Assembly: GCA_022508535.1 (NCBI GenBank)
Contig: JAFLUZ010000009.1
Location: forward strand, 3,480-67,479
DNA length: 64,000 bases
Origin: Erysipelotrichales bacterium
GTDB taxonomy: Bacteria; Bacillota_I; Bacilli_A; RFN20; CAG-826
Reading direction: 5' to 3'
The notes under the pieces are model-generated. The model had not been told where the DNA came from, did no database searches, and was given only the letters and a program-made list of their open reading frames with translations. The position numbers and the translations under genes were made by a program. Shown piece after piece: positions 54,953 through 60,303 of the stretch (position 1 is its first letter; each line of letters begins with the position of its first letter).

Positions 54953-55651
54953 ATGAGACTAGATAGATATTTAGCAAACGCCGGTGTTGGCACAAGAAAA
55001 GAAGTAAAACAACTTATTAAATCAGGAAGAATTAAAGTTAACGATACTTTGGTGCGTGAATCAGATTTTTATGTTGATTTTAGTTCTAATATATCTTTAG
55101 ATGACAAAAAAATTGATTATAAAGAATTTTATTATCTTTTATTAAATAAACCTAAGGGTTATATTTCTGCAACTGCAGATGATTATCACGAAGTAGTGGT
55201 AGACTTGCTCCCAGAATATAAAAAATATGGCATTGCACCTGTCGGAAGACTTGATTTAGATACAACTGGAGTTATGTTATTAACAAATCACGGAGCTCTT
55301 GCTCATGCACTCTTATCACCAAAAAAGCATGTAGATAAAACATATATTGCTGAAGTAAATCATAAACTAGATGTTTCACTTGTTAATAAATTTAATGAAG
55401 GCATTACCTTAGAAGATGGATATACTTGTTTACCTGCCAAATTAGAAATATTAGATGATACCCACGCCAAATTAACAATACATGAAGGAAAGTTCCACCA
55501 AGTTAAAAGAATGTTTAAAATATTTGGTTATGAGGTAATAAATTTAGATCGACAAAGTTTTGATATCTTGACACATGATTCACTTGCGATTGGCGAATAT
55601 CGCGAATTAACAACCGAAGAAGTAGAGCACTTACTTTCATATATAAAATAA
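54953..55651 (+). CDS. rsuA: RsuA-family rRNA pseudouridine synthase (S4 plus catalytic domain)
   Basis: MRLDRYLANAGVGTRKEVKQLIKSGRIKVN and catalytic GRLDLDTTGVMLLTN. Confidence 0.8.
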   Translation: MRLDRYLANAGVGTRKEVKQLIKSGRIKVNDTLVRESDFYVDFSSNISLDDKKIDYKEFYYLLLNKPKGYISATADDYHEVVVDLLPEYKKYGIAPVGRLDLDTTGVMLLTNHGALAHALLSPKKHVDKTYIAEVNHKLDVSLVNKFNEGITLEDGYTCLPAKLEILDDTHAKLTIHEGKFHQVKRMFKIFGYEVINLDRQSFDILTHDSLAIGEYRELTTEEVEHLLSYIK

Positions 55652-55656
55652 ATACA

Positions 55657-55688
55657 AGGATAGGTATTGATGCCTATCCTTTTTATAT
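55657..55688 (+). terminator. Rho-independent terminator after rsuA
   Basis: AGGATAGG / CCTATCCT stem followed by TTTTT. Confidence 0.6.
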
Positions 55689-55699
55689 CACTTATTTCA

Positions 55700-55728
55700 T
55701 TGAAAACTATAAACGCATATGATATATT
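55700..55728 (+). promoter_or_regulatory. Near-consensus sigma-A promoter driving the GC-rich RNA element: TTGAAA-17-TATATT with an extended -10 TG
   Basis: The -35 TTGAAA is at 55700-55705, the spacer is 17 bp ending in TGA, and the -10 TATATT is at 55723-55728. Confidence 0.5.
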
Positions 55729-55735
55729 CGATATA

Positions 55736-56015
55736 TGAATATGAGTCGGTACGTAGTGCTACAAGTTTGGCACATCGATTCGGTTACTAGTTGGCTATCT
55801 TGTGTAGCCAAGCACTAGAAGCAAGTGCTACTAGTAACTAAATATTCATTGTCGTGCTTCACATCAACGGCATTATAGGTTGACGTCCCATTACGAGGAG
55901 TGTAAAACTAGCAAAGGCACATTTAAATTACTAGACCTTATAAGGACGGATGAGATTGTGGTGTAAAAACCGGCGATCGTTGCTATTGAATGATAGAAAT
56001 ATCATTCTTTTTTTT
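55736..56015 (+). ncRNA. Candidate stand-alone structured small RNA (about 280 nt) of unassigned family
   Basis: GC is about 45%, against about 28% for the surrounding genome, and no ORF of 60 aa or more is present. It has its own promoter and an intrinsic terminator (GAATGATA-gaaa-TATCATTC plus T8 at 55988-56015). Nested helices include GTTACTAGT...ACTAGTAAC enclosing the hairpins TTGGCTA/TAGCCAA and GCACT/AGTGC. Confidence 0.4.
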
Positions 56016-56101
56016 CGCTTTTAGAAGACACAATAAATTGTTCACTGATGTGCATACTTTTTTTAATTAAATCACAAAATATATTAGCATTTATTGCACA
56101 C

Positions 56102-56150
56102 TTGACAAAATTCCATATGTCACTTGACAATTTTCCAATTGACAATTGGT
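56102..56150 (+). promoter_or_regulatory. Three direct repeats TTGACAA(N2-3)TTCCA upstream of the XRE regulator gene, either operator sites or stacked -35 elements
   Basis: TTGACAA occurs at 56102, 56124 and 56139. The first two are followed by TTCCA after 2-3 nt (ttgacaaaattcca, ttgacaattttcca); the third reads ttgacaattggta. Confidence 0.4.
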
Positions 56151-56189
56151 ACTTTGCAATCAACAATAAAGATATAATAATGACATGAG

Positions 56190-56684
56190 GTGATTAACAT
56201 GGAACTAGGAAAAAACATTGCGACAGCACGTAAACAAAAAAACATGTCGCAGGAAGAACTAGCAAATCATTTAGACGTTTCAAGACAGTCTATTAGTCTA
56301 TGGGAAACAGATCAAACTACTCCTACTCTTGATAAATTAGAAGCGATGTGTTCCCTATTAGATGTTTCTATGGATATGTTGATGGGCCGTGTAGCAATGA
56401 CACAACCCGTCGCACAAATAACAATAGAAGAAAGAAGAGAAAAGCAACAGCGTGAAATACTTATGAAATTTGATAAAGCAAGTTTCATATTGGCTTGTAT
56501 ATCTACTGTTTTGTGGATTGTTGTTCCATTCGGATTATTATTGTCTGCGTTAAGCATAATATTTTCCGCAGTAGTCATTCGTAGAAAAGAGAAAAAATTT
56601 GCTCCCTACTCTTTAGCAATCAGCATCATATTCTTCATAGCAAGTATTGTTCGAATCGCTGAAATGGGCGTCATTCATTTATAA
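56190..56684 (+). CDS. XRE-family HTH regulator with two C-terminal TM helices (membrane-tethered)
   Basis: N-terminal HTH_3 (LGKNIATARKQKNMSQEELANHLDVSRQSISLWE), with hydrophobic segments at residues 100-160. Confidence 0.65.
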   Translation: MINMELGKNIATARKQKNMSQEELANHLDVSRQSISLWETDQTTPTLDKLEAMCSLLDVSMDMLMGRVAMTQPVAQITIEERREKQQREILMKFDKASFILACISTVLWIVVPFGLLLSALSIIFSAVVIRRKEKKFAPYSLAISIIFFIASIVRIAEMGVIHL

Positions 56685-56701
56685 CATAGGAGGATTTACA
56701 T

Positions 56702-57493
56702 ATGAAAAAGATAACATCATTTTTACTTATAGCATTATTTGGATTTAGCCTTGCTTCTTGCGGTGGTAATGGCGGTTATTACGGAGGAGACGATGGACAA
56801 ACCAACAACGGTGGACCAGGTGTAGATGGTGATGGAAACCAAGTTGTTGTCGATACCGGTCATAAGATTATTTATACTGTCAATTATACAATTCATAGTG
56901 ATGAAATGCAGAATGTGATTAAAGACATTAATGCTAAAGTCTATTATTTTGAAGGATATATTTCTTCCTCTACTCAAGAAACAGATTCTTACGCGGACTT
57001 TGTTTATAAAATTCCAACAGGCCACTTGAATGAGTTCCTTGATTTTGTTGATTCAAATGAGGGTATCGGTAGCAAACGCATCACTACTGAGGATGTCACA
57101 TCCACCTATAATGCCATTCAAGCTCAAATTGATACTTTGGAAGCTTCTAAAGCTGCATATGAGCGCATGTTGGCTGAAGATAATCTATCACTTGATAGTA
57201 TCATGAAAATACGTAGTTATATTGATGAGATAAATACACAATTAAAAATACTCTACAATAAGAGAGATGGTTATGATGCAGTATTAGATTACTCCACTGT
57301 AAAAATTCATTATTATCAAAATAATGTTGAAGTCAAAAACAACTCCTTCCTTAGTGATTATCCAGAGTTTCTTGCTAGATTAGGTCTAGGCATTGTTTCA
57401 TTCTTCGCTTATTCCGCCCCATTCTTAATAGCCGCAGGAATTGTATGTCTCATTATTTATCTCGTGCGTCGAAAAAAATTAAAACAAGAGTAA
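56702..57493 (+). CDS. Lipoprotein with a coiled-coil region and a C-terminal TM anchor (DUF4349-like architecture)
   Basis: Lipobox LASCGG, a Gly-rich linker, a coiled-coil (IQAQIDTLEASKAAYERM), a C-terminal TM helix and an RRKK ending. It starts 18 bp after the XRE gene. Confidence 0.5.
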   Translation: MKKITSFLLIALFGFSLASCGGNGGYYGGDDGQTNNGGPGVDGDGNQVVVDTGHKIIYTVNYTIHSDEMQNVIKDINAKVYYFEGYISSSTQETDSYADFVYKIPTGHLNEFLDFVDSNEGIGSKRITTEDVTSTYNAIQAQIDTLEASKAAYERMLAEDNLSLDSIMKIRSYIDEINTQLKILYNKRDGYDAVLDYSTVKIHYYQNNVEVKNNSFLSDYPEFLARLGLGIVSFFAYSAPFLIAAGIVCLIIYLVRRKKLKQE

Positions 57494-57513
57494 AAATAAT
57501 TCAAGTGCGAACT

Positions 57514-57564
57514 ATACCCCAAAACCCTAGACAAATAGGGCAAGGGGTATTTTTATTTTTTTTA
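57514..57564 (+). terminator. Rho-independent terminator (compound hairpin) after the 56702-57493 gene
   Basis: ATACCCC...[CCCTA-gacaaa-TAGGG]...GGGGTAT followed by T-rich TTTTTATTTTTTTT. Confidence 0.55.
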
Positions 57565-57666
57565 ATATTTTAAATGAAATTATATTTCATTTGTGTTAAG
57601 ATATTTCCGTAGCATTAAACCGTGCTAATATGAATTAGCAAGGTAATTTATTTAGGAGGAAAAACA

Positions 57667-60303
57667 ATGCAAGAAAAAAAGTATGTTTATCACTTTAAAG
57701 AAGCTCATGGTTTAGGTAAAGAACTTCTTGGTGGTAAGGGTGCTGGCTTAGCAGAAATGACCCACATTGGAGTCCCAATTCCACAAGGTTTTACAATCAC
57801 AACTGAAGCTTGCACACTTTATTATGAAAGCGGAAAAACACTTCCAGAATTTTTAGTAAAACAAGTTCACGAAGCAATTAAAGCCGTTGAAAAAGAAACA
57901 GGAAAATCATTTGGTGGAGACAAGAACCCATTATTAGTTAGTGTTCGTTCTGGTGCTCGTGTCAGTATGCCTGGTATGATGGATACAATCCTTAACTTAG
58001 GTTTAAATGATAAGACTGTTGAAGTTTTAGCAAAAGAAACAAATAACGAAAGATTTGCTTACGATAGTTATCGTCGTTTCATCTTAATGTTTACAAACAT
58101 TGCTAAAGGTCATCCAAGAACAGCAATGGATAAAATGTTAGATGAATTAAAAGAATCAAAAGGTTATAAATTAGATACTGAAGTTACAGCTGATGAATTA
58201 AAAGCTTTAGTAGCAAAATATAAAGCATATTATAAAGAAACATTCGGCGAAGACTTCCCAGCAGATCCATATGTTCAATTAATTGAAGCAGTTACAGCTG
58301 TTTTCCGTTCATGGGATAACCCACGTGCTAACGTTTACCGTATGATGAACTCTATTCCATATTCATGGGGTACTGCAGTTAACGTCCAATCAATGGCATT
58401 CGGTAACAAAGGTGAAACATCTGGTACAGGTGTTGCTTTCTCACGTGACCCAGCTACTGGCGAAAACAAAATTTCAGCTGAATACTTACCAAACGCACAA
58501 GGTGAAGACGTCGTTGCAGGTATTCGTACTCCATTACACATTGATGAACTCAATGCTCGTATGCCAGACGTTTATAGACAATTCGTCGAAACCATTAAGA
58601 AAATGGAACACCACTACAGAGATATGCAAGATATGGAATTCACTGTCGAAGATGGTAAACTCTATTTCTTACAAACACGTAATGGTAAGAGAACTCCTGC
58701 AGCAGCTTTAAAAATCGCTTGTGATTTGGTTGATGAAGGATTAATTACAACAGATGAAGCTATCTTAAGAATTGATCCAGTTTCATTTGATAAATTATTA
58801 TTACCAGCATTTGATAGAGATGATTTAAAGAATGGTGTTGTCATTGCTGAAGGTTTAGCAGCTGGTCCTGGTGCAGGTACTGGTAAAATTGCTTTCACAG
58901 CAGAAGAAGCTGAAGCAAGACACGCAGCTGGTGAAAAAGTTATCTTAGCACGTGCTGAAACATCTCCAGAAGACATCGTCGGTATGGTCGCCGCTGAAGG
59001 TATCTTAACAATGCGCGGTGGTATGACATCTCACGCAGCTGTTGTTGCTCGTGGTATGGGTAAATGCTGTGTCTGTGGTTGTAAAGAAGCTTTAATCGAC
59101 GAAGAAGCAAGAACACTTACAATCGATGGCAAAGTATATACAGATAAAGATACACTTTCATTAGATGGTTCTACAGGTAAAGTCTACCTTGGAGACATTA
59201 AGAAAGTTATGCCAGATTTATCAGCAGGTTACTTCGGACGTTTAATGAAATGGGTCGATGAAGCTCGTACATTAAAAGTTCGTACAAATGCTGATACACC
59301 TCGTGATGCAAAACAAGCAAAAGAATTTGGTGCAGAAGGTATTGGCTTATGCCGTACAGAACACATGTTCTTTGATAAAGATAGAATTTTCTCAATGAGA
59401 AAAATGATCTTAGCAGATACAGTTGAAGAACGTAGAGCTGCATTAGCAGAATTAGAACCAATGCAACAATCTGACTTTGAAGCATTGTATGAAACAATGG
59501 GAGAAATGAACGTTAACGTACGTTTATTAGATCCACCTCTACATGAATTCTTACCAACAGAAGAAGATAAGATCGAAGAATTAGCTAAAGCAACAGGTAG
59601 AACTGTTGAACAAGTTAAAGCTCGTATTGAATACTTACACGAATTCAACCCTATGATGGGTCACCGTGGTTGCCGTTTAGCAGTTTCTTATCCAGAAATG
59701 TGCGAAATGCAAACAACAGCTATTATCAAAGCTGCAATCAACGTTACTAAGAAGACTGGCTTAAAGATTGAACCAGAAATCATGGTACCACTCGTCTTAG
59801 AAGTTAAAGAACTTAAGTTTGTTAAGAAGATCATTACAGATACAGCAGATAGATTAATCGCTGAAGCTGGTGTTAACATGAAATACCATGTTGGTACAAT
59901 GATCGAAATCCCACGTGCTGCATTACTTGCAGATGAAATCGCTGGTGAAGCAGAATTCTTCTCATTTGGTACAAACGACTTAACACAAATGACATTCGGA
60001 TTCTCCCGTGATGATGCTGCTAAGTTCTTACCAGACTATTACGAACACAAGATCTTTGAAGAAGATCCATTCAAGACACTTGATCAACACGGTGTTGGTA
60101 AATTAGTCGATATGGCAGTCAAAGCTGGCCGTTCAACAAGACCTGAATTACACGTCGGTGTCTGTGGTGAAACAGGTGGCGAACCAAACTCAATCGAATT
60201 CTACCACAAGGCTGGATTAGATTACGTTTCATGTTCACCATTCCGTGTACCAGTTGCTCGTTTGGCTGCTGCACAAGCTGCTATTAAAAATCCTAAAAAA
60301 TAA
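57667..60303 (+). CDS. ppdK: Pyruvate, phosphate dikinase
   Basis: 878 aa with the PEP-utilising-enzyme phosphohistidine region GGMTSHAAVVARGMGKCCV and a TIM-barrel C-terminus. The RBS is AGGAGG. Confidence 0.95.
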   Translation: MQEKKYVYHFKEAHGLGKELLGGKGAGLAEMTHIGVPIPQGFTITTEACTLYYESGKTLPEFLVKQVHEAIKAVEKETGKSFGGDKNPLLVSVRSGARVSMPGMMDTILNLGLNDKTVEVLAKETNNERFAYDSYRRFILMFTNIAKGHPRTAMDKMLDELKESKGYKLDTEVTADELKALVAKYKAYYKETFGEDFPADPYVQLIEAVTAVFRSWDNPRANVYRMMNSIPYSWGTAVNVQSMAFGNKGETSGTGVAFSRDPATGENKISAEYLPNAQGEDVVAGIRTPLHIDELNARMPDVYRQFVETIKKMEHHYRDMQDMEFTVEDGKLYFLQTRNGKRTPAAALKIACDLVDEGLITTDEAILRIDPVSFDKLLLPAFDRDDLKNGVVIAEGLAAGPGAGTGKIAFTAEEAEARHAAGEKVILARAETSPEDIVGMVAAEGILTMRGGMTSHAAVVARGMGKCCVCGCKEALIDEEARTLTIDGKVYTDKDTLSLDGSTGKVYLGDIKKVMPDLSAGYFGRLMKWVDEARTLKVRTNADTPRDAKQAKEFGAEGIGLCRTEHMFFDKDRIFSMRKMILADTVEERRAALAELEPMQQSDFEALYETMGEMNVNVRLLDPPLHEFLPTEEDKIEELAKATGRTVEQVKARIEYLHEFNPMMGHRGCRLAVSYPEMCEMQTTAIIKAAINVTKKTGLKIEPEIMVPLVLEVKELKFVKKIITDTADRLIAEAGVNMKYHVGTMIEIPRAALLADEIAGEAEFFSFGTNDLTQMTFGFSRDDAAKFLPDYYEHKIFEEDPFKTLDQHGVGKLVDMAVKAGRSTRPELHVGVCGETGGEPNSIEFYHKAGLDYVSCSPFRVPVARLAAAQAAIKNPKK

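What the first reader, a model, noticed from the sequence alone, without database searches (positions are those of the whole stretch)
55700..56015. Autonomous GC-rich structured RNA gene of about 280 nt with no family assignment
The 540-bp gap between rsuA and the XRE gene contains a discrete transcription unit. It has a near-consensus promoter (TTGAAA-17-TGaTATATT), a body at about 45% GC in a roughly 28% GC genome, nested helices (GTTACTAGT...ACTAGTAAC enclosing TTGGCTA/TAGCCAA and GCACT/AGTGC hairpins, plus a repeated AGTGCTAC), and its own intrinsic terminator 170 bp before the next start codon. It contains no ORF of 60 aa or more. I could not match it from memory to SRP, 6S, tmRNA, RNase P, T-box or common riboswitch consensus sequences.
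Basis: seen in the sequence. Interest (0 to 1): 0.65.

Follow-up and report, generated by a model that had tools for sequence, protein, structure and literature searches.

The report
Lineage-restricted candidate small RNA gene
The gap after rsuA in this uncultured Erysipelotrichales genome holds what looks like a real but narrowly distributed ~280-nt small-RNA gene of unknown role: an ordinary kind of object, and a new family only in the sense that nothing known matches it.

Summary
They are a near-consensus extended -10 promoter, a body richer in GC than its surroundings (41% against 30%, not 45% against 28%), nested perfect helices, and a weak hairpin followed by eight U. No Rfam 15 family matches.

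Only the first 115 nt (55735-55849) are unusually structured (z = -5.5, three-way junction, 45 bp). The next ~135 nt fold no better than shuffled sequence.

The element occurs only in this organism and one close relative (L122). Between these two it is about four times more conserved than flanking non-coding and four-fold sites (6/281 against 26/323, p = 0.0008). Both promoter hexamers are intact, and all three substitutions in helices keep pairing on the + strand only.

A sister species (L082, RsuA 90%) keeps only a ~65-nt remnant, inside a short promoter-hairpin-U7 unit. More distant relatives lack the element entirely. No copies were found in phages, plasmids, IMG/VR or JGI metagenomes. The 27-codon ORF changes only by amino-acid replacements, so it is not a peptide gene.

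Best reading: an orphan, dispensable, independently transcribed sRNA. Its 5' end is locked in a stable domain, and a single-stranded 3' region is the likely effector. Expression and function are untested.

The parts
55700..55728 (+). Sigma-70-type promoter: -35 TTGAAA (55700-05), 17-nt spacer, extended -10 TG (55720-21) plus TATATT (55723-28).
   Evidence: One search gives a 10/12 match with TG. One search shows that sites of this quality are rare in the window (10 observed against 4.3 expected). In L122 all 5 substitutions in 55700-55734 fall in the spacer or between the -10 element and +1; none falls in the hexamers or the TG.
55735..55849 (+). 5' domain, 115 nt: a three-way junction of six gap-free helices (45 bp).
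- P1: 55735-42 / 55842-49
- P2: 55743-50 / 55774-81
- P2b: 55756-61 / 55768-73
- P3: 55782-91 / 55830-39
- P3a: 55792-98 / 55804-10
- P3b: 55811-16 / 55824-29
The predicted +1 (55735, inferred) is the first base of P1.
   Evidence: Searches give the MFE fold and pair probabilities. One search gives -43.6 kcal/mol against -25.3 +/- 3.3 for shuffles (z = -5.5, 0 of 300). One search shows 100% of cells paired in both sequences, with 3 one-sided changes that keep pairing. G-U pairs make the fold specific to the + strand.
55850..55872 (+). Small hairpin: 6 bp (UGUCGU/ACGGCA) with an 11-nt loop.
   Evidence: Searches give pair probabilities of 0.63-0.78. The fold is not better than shuffles. The one substitution in L122 (55862) lies in the loop.
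55869..55935 (+). Largely single-stranded core, and the only part with a counterpart in sister species L082 (6762-6828). The best local alignment is a 55-nt ungapped block, 55879-55933, at 67% identity; reading it about 10 nt further to the left by eye gives ~66% over 65 nt. I propose this as the effector (partner-binding) region.
   Evidence: local score 30 against 19.2 +/- 2.7 for shuffles, with 3 of 500 shuffles at least as high. In L082 the core sits in the 40-nt loop of a perfect 13-bp hairpin followed by U7. The effector role is inferred, not tested.
55936..55987 (+). 3' spacer with a weak bulged hairpin (about 55953-55976).
   Evidence: It is identical in L122 and deleted in L082.
55988..56015 (+). 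Intrinsic terminator: stem GAAUGAUA/UAUCAUUC, loop GAAA, then U8.
   Evidence: Sequence. Stability is -8.1 kcal/mol. There are 0 substitutions in L122. The consensus scanner did not call it because the stem has only 2 G-C pairs.

Best explanation
This is an independently transcribed, non-coding small RNA of about 280 nt that is restricted to one shallow lineage of uncultured Erysipelotrichales.

Proposed mechanism:
- Transcription starts about 7 nt after an extended -10 promoter.
- The first nucleotides are immediately locked into P1 of a very stable 115-nt three-way-junction domain. I infer that this domain protects the 5' end from degradation and/or binds a protein.
- The following ~135 nt are poorly structured. 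They include the ~65-nt core that is the only part kept in the sister species. I infer that this stretch contacts the RNA's partner, either an mRNA or a protein.
- A weak hairpin followed by U8 ends the transcript 183 nt before the separately promoted XRE-DUF4349 operon.

The RNA is dispensable over short evolutionary distances, so a regulatory or accessory role is more likely than a core one.

Shown here: the anatomy, the constraint relative to flanking sequence, structure-compatible substitutions on the + strand, the absence of coding signal, and the absence of any known family match. Inferred: transcription, the role of each domain, and action in trans.
For: - Promoter. It is a 10/12 match with TG, rare in the window. 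Its hexamers are untouched in L122, while 5 of the other 21 positions in 55700-55734 changed.
- Structure. The 5' domain has z = -5.5. The + strand folds 17 kcal/mol better than the - strand.
- Constraint, window against L122. The element plus terminator has 6/281 substitutions. This compares with 11/83 in the upstream intergenic region (IGR), 11/183 in the downstream IGR, 4/57 at XRE four-fold sites and 52/264 at DUF4349 third positions. Fisher one-sided p = 0.0008 against all flanking neutral-like sites, and p = 0.013 against downstream-only sites.
- Helix substitutions. The three are G.U to A-U, C-G to U.G and A-U to G.U. All remain paired in + strand RNA but would give mismatches on the - strand. 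The other three substitutions lie in loops.
- Coding. The 27-codon ORF shows S4N, C23R and H27C with no synonymous change. Six-frame Pfam gave nothing.
- Family. No Rfam family matches.
- Sister species. L082 keeps a promoter-like site, a hairpin and U7 around the homologous core.
Against: - There is no expression data.
- Only two distinct full-length sequences exist, so there is no two-sided covariation. Three wobble-compatible transitions have about a 1-in-4 chance of occurring under neutrality.
- XRE is also little diverged between the window and L122 (2.7%), so part of the low divergence could come from a recent recombination tract rather than selection. Against the whole downstream IGR the contrast is only p = 0.03.
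- The terminator is weak.
- The element is absent from species with 73-90% identical RsuA, so any function is not needed there.
- No outlier target was found among 53 translation-initiation regions in the window.
- Perfect, bulge-free helices are also what a young palindromic insertion would show.
Confidence: 0.5

Rival explanations
1. A young, essentially neutral insertion or expansion of palindromic DNA that happens to carry promoter- and terminator-like AT-rich signals. It may be transcribed as noise but has no selected function.
For: - It is found in only two near-identical lineages. It is absent or reduced to a remnant in the nearest relatives at the same locus.
- The helices are perfect, with no bulges, as expected for something recent.
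- There is no two-sided covariation.
- Promoter-like sites at the scanner's looser threshold (9 of 12 matches) are as common in this 1-kb region as in shuffles: 6 against 5.3.
- The low divergence could partly reflect a recombination tract shared with XRE.
Against: - Divergence in the element is 2.1%, against 6-13% in the intergenic DNA directly next to it. The change in rate is sharp at the predicted +1.
- The hexamers and TG are conserved while the spacer varies.
- All helix substitutions keep pairing, and only on the + strand.
- A 10/12 site with TG is rare in the window.
Confidence: 0.2
2. A cis-acting element rather than a free RNA. Either it is a promoter-leader-terminator module that insulates or attenuates transcription entering the XRE-DUF4349 operon, or it is the orphaned leader (riboswitch- or T-box-like) of a gene that was lost from this variable slot.
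For: - It lies directly upstream of the XRE operon and on the same strand.
- The terminator is weak (-8.1 kcal/mol), so read-through is plausible.
- The rsuA-ppdk interval is a slot whose content differs between relatives: an FGGY kinase gene, tiny ORFs, XRE-DUF4349, or nothing.
- L082 has a shorter promoter-hairpin-U7 unit at the same place.
Against: - XRE has its own promoter/operator block. That block is about 90% conserved in four lineages, including L124, which lacks the element.
- XRE-DUF4349 cassettes elsewhere have upstream gaps of only 143-225 bp.
- No riboswitch or T-box model scores even at E < 10.
- Reading the sequence shows no upstream segment complementary to the 5' arm of the terminator that could form an antiterminator.
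- The 5' domain has almost no unpaired junction nucleotides that could form a ligand pocket.
Confidence: 0.12
3. A small-protein gene or a dual-function RNA. Candidate products are the leaderless 27-aa ORF (55735-55818), the 28-aa TTG ORF (55880-55966), and a 24-aa ORF (55950-56024, MRLWCKNRRSLLLNDRNIILFFRF).
For: - The ATG lies exactly at the predicted +1, which fits a leaderless mRNA.
- AAGGA lies 3 nt before the ATG at 55950.
- The single change in the TTG ORF is synonymous.
- In a related species the same slot carries tiny peptide ORFs.
Against: - The 27-aa ORF has 3 replacements in 27 residues and no synonymous change, whereas XRE stays 97% identical at the protein level.
- The ORF start is buried in P1.
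- The TTG ORF has no usable Shine-Dalgarno sequence.
- The 24-aa ORF runs through the terminator hairpin and the U-tract.
- None of the peptides is hydrophobic or toxin-like.
- Six-frame Pfam gave nothing, and gene callers called nothing here.
Confidence: 0.06
4. A non-autonomous mobile or repeat element, for example a MITE- or PATE-like element or a single-stranded-DNA hairpin site. In that case the nested palindromes act at the DNA level.
For: - Presence or absence at one locus differs between close relatives.
- It has nested perfect inverted repeats, including the palindromic ACTAGT core.
- It has higher GC than its surroundings.
Against: - There is no second copy in the 64-kb window.
- There are no hits in phages or plasmids.
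- Six seed scans of IMG/VR gave only chance seed-length matches, and two JGI metagenome scans gave none.
- No convincing terminal inverted repeats or target-site duplication could be defined against L124 or L082.
- No transposase or recombinase gene lies nearby.
- The wobble-type substitutions fit RNA rather than duplex DNA.
Confidence: 0.07

Closest known systems
Orphan trans-acting sRNA genes of Bacillota that have their own sigma-A promoter and intrinsic terminator, such as Bacillus subtilis SR1 and RoxS/RsaE. This comparison is from general knowledge, not from a test.
   Same: Stand-alone intergenic unit. Size is in the 100-300 nt range. The 5' end is structured, there is an accessible single-stranded stretch, and the unit ends in a Rho-independent terminator. 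Distribution is narrow.
   Different: No sequence or covariance-model similarity to any Rfam sRNA family. It has no C-rich or anti-SD seed motif. No target has been identified. Its distribution, two close lineages, is much narrower than that of RoxS or SR1.
GC-rich intergenic 'orphan' structured RNAs found in AT-rich Bacillota by GC/IGR-length screens, such as the raiA motif RNA (Rfam). The comparison with the screen type is from memory.
   Same: It was flagged by the same signature: a long IGR with raised GC in a low-GC genome. It has its own promoter and terminator and multi-stem architecture.
   Different: The Rfam scans, which covered every family in release 15, returned no match in this region even at E < 10. 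Only 115 nt are structured. There is no broad phylogenetic distribution and no covariation support. The junctions are almost free of conserved unpaired nucleotides.
T-box leader RNAs (RF00230)
   Same: Length of about 250-300 nt, a 5' multi-helix domain followed by a terminator, and a Bacillota host. The GGTGTAAAAACCGGCG stretch looks superficially like a T-box sequence.
   Different: No model hit at E < 10. No antiterminator alternative to the terminator. No amino-acid-related gene downstream; XRE has its own promoter.
phi29-type pRNA three-way-junction RNAs (Rfam family; the structural resemblance is recalled from memory).
   Same: A ~115-120-nt RNA built around a three-way junction, with the 5' and 3' ends paired in one helix.
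   Different: No model hit. No phage genes nearby, and no match in phage collections.

Membership tests
Any Rfam 15 family (including 6S, SRP, tmRNA, RNase P, riboswitches, ribozymes, raiA, OLE, pRNA) | Score at or above the family's gathering threshold | tested here: not met
   There were 0 matches in the whole window. In 55600-56250 the lowest E-value was 1.7, and the highest score was 22.5 bits against a gathering score of 44; those hits rest on terminator-like hairpins. ARAGORN found no tRNA or tmRNA.
Housekeeping RNA (6S / SRP / RNase P type) | Conserved in related genomes | tested here: not met
   At the syntenic site it is absent or reduced to a remnant in L082, L083-85, L115, L118-121, L124 and L001. 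Copies elsewhere in those genomes could not be searched.
6S RNA | Rod-like fold in which the 5' and 3' ends pair around a central bubble | tested here: not met
   The 5' end pairs locally (P1 closes at nt 115), and the 3' half is unstructured.
T-box leader | T-box covariance-model match, plus an antiterminator that competes with the terminator | tested here: not met
   There is no RF00230 hit at E < 10. No upstream segment is complementary to the terminator's 5' arm (reading).
T-box leader / riboswitch | A regulated gene in the same transcription unit immediately downstream | tested here: not met
   The next gene is 183 nt away, behind its own promoter/operator block. That block is conserved in lineages that lack the element.
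Stand-alone bacterial sRNA gene (generic class) | Own promoter | tested here: met
   The site is a 10/12 match with TG. Such sites are rare in the window. The hexamers are conserved in L122 while the spacer varies. This is a prediction only.
Stand-alone bacterial sRNA gene (generic class) | Intrinsic terminator at the 3' end | tested here: met
   An 8-bp stem (-8.1 kcal/mol) followed by U8, invariant in L122. It is weak.
Stand-alone bacterial sRNA gene (generic class) | No conserved reading frame | tested here: met
   The 27-codon ORF has only non-synonymous changes. Six-frame Pfam gave nothing. The power of this test is low, because it rests on six substitutions.
Stand-alone bacterial sRNA gene (generic class) | A discrete transcript is detected | not testable with these tools
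   No RNA-seq or Northern data are available.
Stand-alone bacterial sRNA gene (generic class) | An identified target or partner | tested here: inconclusive
   A duplex scan against 53 translation-initiation regions in the window gave a best energy of -28.9 kcal/mol, against a shuffled-sRNA null of -30.1 +/- 3.0. The rest of the genome was not available.
Structured RNA with evolutionarily supported fold | Compensatory (two-sided) covariation in helices | tested here: inconclusive
   Only two distinct sequences exist. There are 0 two-sided changes, 3 one-sided changes that keep pairing, and 100% of cells are paired.
Type I toxin mRNA | A short hydrophobic (transmembrane) ORF with a ribosome-binding site | tested here: not met
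   None of the small ORFs is hydrophobic. This contrasts with the 25-aa peptide in L083/L085.
MITE / repeat element | Multiple copies, with terminal inverted repeats and a target-site duplication | tested here: inconclusive
   There is a single copy in the 64-kb window and none in the other collections. Insertion boundaries could not be defined. The rest of the genome was not searchable.
Retron / DRT / bridge-RNA-type ncRNA | An adjacent reverse transcriptase or recombinase gene | tested here: not met
   The neighbours are a VCA0040-like gene, rsuA, XRE, DUF4349, ppdk and a carbonic anhydrase gene.

The most novel reading that the evidence does not exclude
The 115-nt three-way-junction domain is the founding member of a previously undescribed class of structured RNA, for example a dedicated protein-binding scaffold or a catalytic/processing module. 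It would be coupled to a single-stranded effector arm. The mini-version in the sister species (core presented in a hairpin loop) would show that the arm is the conserved functional unit.
Probability: 0.08. Interest if true: 0.55.

Novelty: new member of a known kind. Interest (0 to 1): 0.28.

Why it matters
If the RNA is transcribed, it adds one more lineage-specific sRNA to a clade of uncultured gut Erysipelotrichales in which no sRNAs have been described.

The pair made of the full-length form and the 70-nt remnant in the sister species would be a compact example of how sRNA genes are born, trimmed or lost in a variable chromosomal slot.

It does not bear on any long-standing question. Its narrow distribution makes it a poor candidate for a new widespread RNA class.

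Tried and rejected
- Known RNA family. Rfam at gathering thresholds on the whole window, and in E-value mode on 651 nt, gave nothing. ARAGORN gave nothing.
- Conserved syntenic RNA downstream of rsuA. nhmmer and blastn against 80 rsuA loci from GTDB genomes, plus closer relatives from Logan, ENA and NCBI, gave only chance seeds. A covariance model of the 5' domain found nothing in 95 + 14 loci.
- Remnant of the FGGY kinase gene that occupies this slot in relatives. This idea came from a recurring 19-nt blastn match. tblastn with three FGGY proteins found nothing better than E = 0.8 in a four-sequence database, so I rejected it.
- Other pseudogene. Six-frame Pfam at E < 10 gave only one sub-threshold zinc-finger hit at E = 0.07.
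- Homology to the tiny-ORF unit in species C. The local alignment score equalled the shuffle mean.
- Phage, plasmid or mobile origin. blastn against phages and plasmids and six IMG/VR seed scans gave only chance seed-length matches. There is no second copy in the window.
- Wider distribution. Two JGI metagenome pattern scans gave 0 hits. One tolerated the differences between the window and sister species L082 in the 3' core; the other was a loop-anchored spaced seed in the 5' domain.
- Link to the XRE-DUF4349 cassette. The cassette occurs without the RNA in L124 and L125-129.
- Target prediction within the window gave no outlier.
- A target-site duplication against L124 could not be established.
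- A literature search for Erysipelotrichales sRNAs returned nothing relevant.
- One call failed because I gave wrong coordinates, and one script timed out.

Full report
OBSERVATION

The window comes from an uncultured Erysipelotrichales MAG. The identification rests on RsuA being 100% identical to an NCBI MAG protein.

Between the rsuA stop codon (55651) and the XRE-family gene (ATG 56199) lies a 547-bp gap. The rsuA terminator is at 55656-55681. The gap then contains, in order:

- a promoter: TTGAAA, 17 nt, TG-a-TATATT, at 55700-55728. It is a 10/12 match with an extended -10 element.
- a body of raised GC content.
- an 8-bp hairpin (55988-56007) followed by eight T (56008-56015).

Promoter matches of this quality are rare. 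There are ten on both strands of the 64 kb, against 4.3 +/- 2.4 expected.

GC is 41.4% for the body and 38.8% with the terminator included. The window mean is 30.4%. The element is in the top 2% of 280-nt windows.

No ORF reaches 60 aa.

ANATOMY

The unit folds better on the + strand (-79 kcal/mol, z = -3.0) than on the - strand (-62 kcal/mol, z = -1.8). The signal is concentrated in the first 115 nt.

- 55735-55849 folds at -43.6 kcal/mol, against -25.3 +/- 3.3 for dinucleotide shuffles (z = -5.5, 0 of 300).
- 55850-55985 has z = +0.7, and z = -0.6 with the terminator included.

The 5' domain is a three-way junction of six uninterrupted helices, 45 bp in all. P1 is formed by the very first transcribed nucleotides. 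Its junctions contain almost no unpaired residues.

The terminator is weak, at -8.1 kcal/mol with two G-C pairs.

KNOWN FAMILIES

Rfam 15 gives no match at gathering thresholds anywhere in the window. It gives nothing with E < 1 in 55600-56250. The listed hits rest on terminator-like hairpins. ARAGORN finds nothing.

DISTRIBUTION

- A Logan contig (L081) is identical to the window.
- A second lineage, L122 (XRE 97% identical at the protein level), carries the full element.
- The sister species L082 (RsuA 90%) has the same gene order, rsuA-XRE-DUF4349-ppdk, but a 267-bp gap. It lacks the 5' domain and the terminator. It keeps a ~65-nt stretch homologous to 55869-55935. The core of this stretch is a 55-nt ungapped block at 67% identity, with a local score of 30 against 19.2 +/- 2.7 for shuffles (3 of 500 shuffles at least as high).
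- In L082 that stretch forms the 40-nt loop of a perfect 13-bp hairpin followed by T7. The hairpin lies downstream of a promoter-like TTTATA-17-TATATT site.
- Other relatives have different content in the slot and no similarity to the element. L083-85 (RsuA 85%) have tiny ORFs. L001 and L118-121 (65-73%) have an FGGY kinase gene. L115 (73%) has only a short gap before the next gene. L124 has the XRE cassette without the element.
- More distant XRE-DUF4349 cassettes sit in unrelated contexts, with upstream gaps of 143-225 bp. The RNA is therefore not part of that cassette.
- No copies were found elsewhere in the window, in phage or plasmid collections, in IMG/VR, or in JGI metagenomes.
- A covariance model of the 5' domain finds only the two known copies.

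EVIDENCE FOR SELECTION

Substitutions between the window and L122, by region:

| Region | Substitutions |
|---|---|
| Element plus terminator | 6/281 (2.1%) |
| rsuA-terminator IGR plus promoter region | 11/83 |
| Downstream IGR | 11/183 |
| XRE four-fold sites | 4/57 |
| DUF4349 third positions | 52/264 |

Fisher one-sided tests give p = 0.0008 against all flanking neutral-like sites. They give p = 0.013 against downstream-only sites (56016-56097 plus XRE four-fold sites), and p = 0.03 against the whole downstream IGR.

Within 55700-55734, all five changes avoid the -35 hexamer, the TG and the -10 hexamer.

Of the six changes in the element, three are in helices and all three keep pairing:

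- 55745: G.U to A-U
- 55813: C-G to U.G
- 55814: A-U to G.U

The last two would be mismatches on the complementary strand. The other three changes lie in loops.

This supports a + strand RNA under constraint, but the evidence is thin. There is no two-sided covariation. The three wobble-compatible transitions have about a 25% chance of occurring under neutrality. XRE is also little diverged, so a shared recombination tract could contribute to the low divergence.

CODING

All four substitutions inside the leaderless 27-codon ORF are non-synonymous (S4N, C23R, H27C). The other two mini-ORFs lack convincing ribosome-binding sites or run through the terminator. Six-frame Pfam is empty. An FGGY-pseudogene origin was tested and rejected.

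INTERPRETATION

The best-supported reading (confidence about 0.5) is a stand-alone, non-coding sRNA gene of recent origin or rapid turnover.

- The stable 5' three-way-junction domain sequesters the 5' end. I infer a role in stability and/or as a protein platform.
- It is followed by a long accessible region, whose core is the only part kept in the sister species. I infer that this is the effector.
- A weak terminator ends the transcript.

Rivals, with my confidence in each:

- a functionless young palindromic insertion (0.2)
- a cis-acting leader, insulator or orphaned leader (0.12)
- a mobile or repeat element (0.07)
- a small-protein or dual-function gene (0.06)

No target was detectable within the 64 kb available.

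COMPARISON AND NOVELTY

The element works like, and is most simply filed with, orphan trans-acting sRNAs of Bacillota. It meets the predicted-promoter, predicted-terminator and non-coding criteria. The defining criteria of a detected transcript and an identified target remain untested.

It is not a member of any Rfam family. It fails the tests for T-box or riboswitch leaders, 6S or other housekeeping RNAs, type I toxins, and retron-like ncRNAs.

It is a new family of a known kind with very narrow distribution. Its interest is modest.

Noticed in passing
L083:2908-3405 and L085:3432-3950 (the rsuA-ppdk gap in species with 84-85% identical RsuA): There are two tandem tiny ORFs with Shine-Dalgarno sites: MMQ(S/F)IYIQPAYGWINS (16 aa) and MDCLSLIALILILIFLLCDRASKKD (25 aa). 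The second is hydrophobic with a charged tail and is identical in both loci. They are followed by a strong terminator. The unit resembles a type I toxin or small membrane peptide. It is unrelated in sequence to the window element.
   Followed up: partly
window 56098-56198: The XRE promoter/operator block has three direct TTGACA-containing boxes (CACTTGACAAAAT / CACTTGACAATTT / AATTGACAATTGG). It is about 90% conserved in the window, L122, L082 and L124, while the rest of the intergenic region is not. It is probably an autoregulatory operator array.
   Followed up: partly
window 56199-57493; L082, L122, L124, L125-L129: An XRE-family HTH protein, about 160 aa, is always paired with a DUF4349 protein. 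Reading the window protein, its C-terminal third looks hydrophobic and possibly membrane-spanning; this was not tested. The pair is a conserved two-gene cassette that appears in several unrelated chromosomal contexts. Its function is unknown.
   Followed up: partly
window 55652-57666 and the syntenic loci: The rsuA-ppdk interval is a variable slot. It holds a reverse-strand FGGY kinase gene (L001, L118-121), only a short gap (L115), tiny ORFs (L083-85), or XRE-DUF4349 (window, L082, L122, L124).
   Followed up: yes
window 57667-60303 against L082:8629-11265: ppdk is 96.8% identical at the nucleotide level between the window and L082 (91% at four-fold sites). rsuA, 2 kb away, is 82% identical (45% at four-fold sites). 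This indicates a mosaic or recombination history, or exceptional codon constraint on ppdk.
   Followed up: no
L122:59-90, equivalent to window 55656-55681: The left arm of the rsuA terminator hairpin is disrupted in L122 (AAGGATAGG becomes ACGTGTAGA) while the right arm is intact. In that lineage rsuA transcription may read into the element's promoter region.
   Followed up: no
window 55783-55791, 55829-55837, 55905-55910, 55926-55934: A CTAG-centred motif recurs four times (GTTACTAGT, ACTAGTAAC, AACTAGC, ATTACTAGA). The fourth copy could in principle compete with P3 for its 3' arm. The T-to-C change at 55928 in L122 weakens that alternative pairing, so I did not pursue it.
   Followed up: partly
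window 56108-56081 (- strand): A promoter-like site faces leftwards from the XRE operator region: TTGTCA, 16 nt, TG-TAATAT, a 9/12 match. It could drive a transcript antisense to the whole element. It is no better than chance expectation for this AT-rich region, and its -10 element is altered in L122.
   Followed up: no
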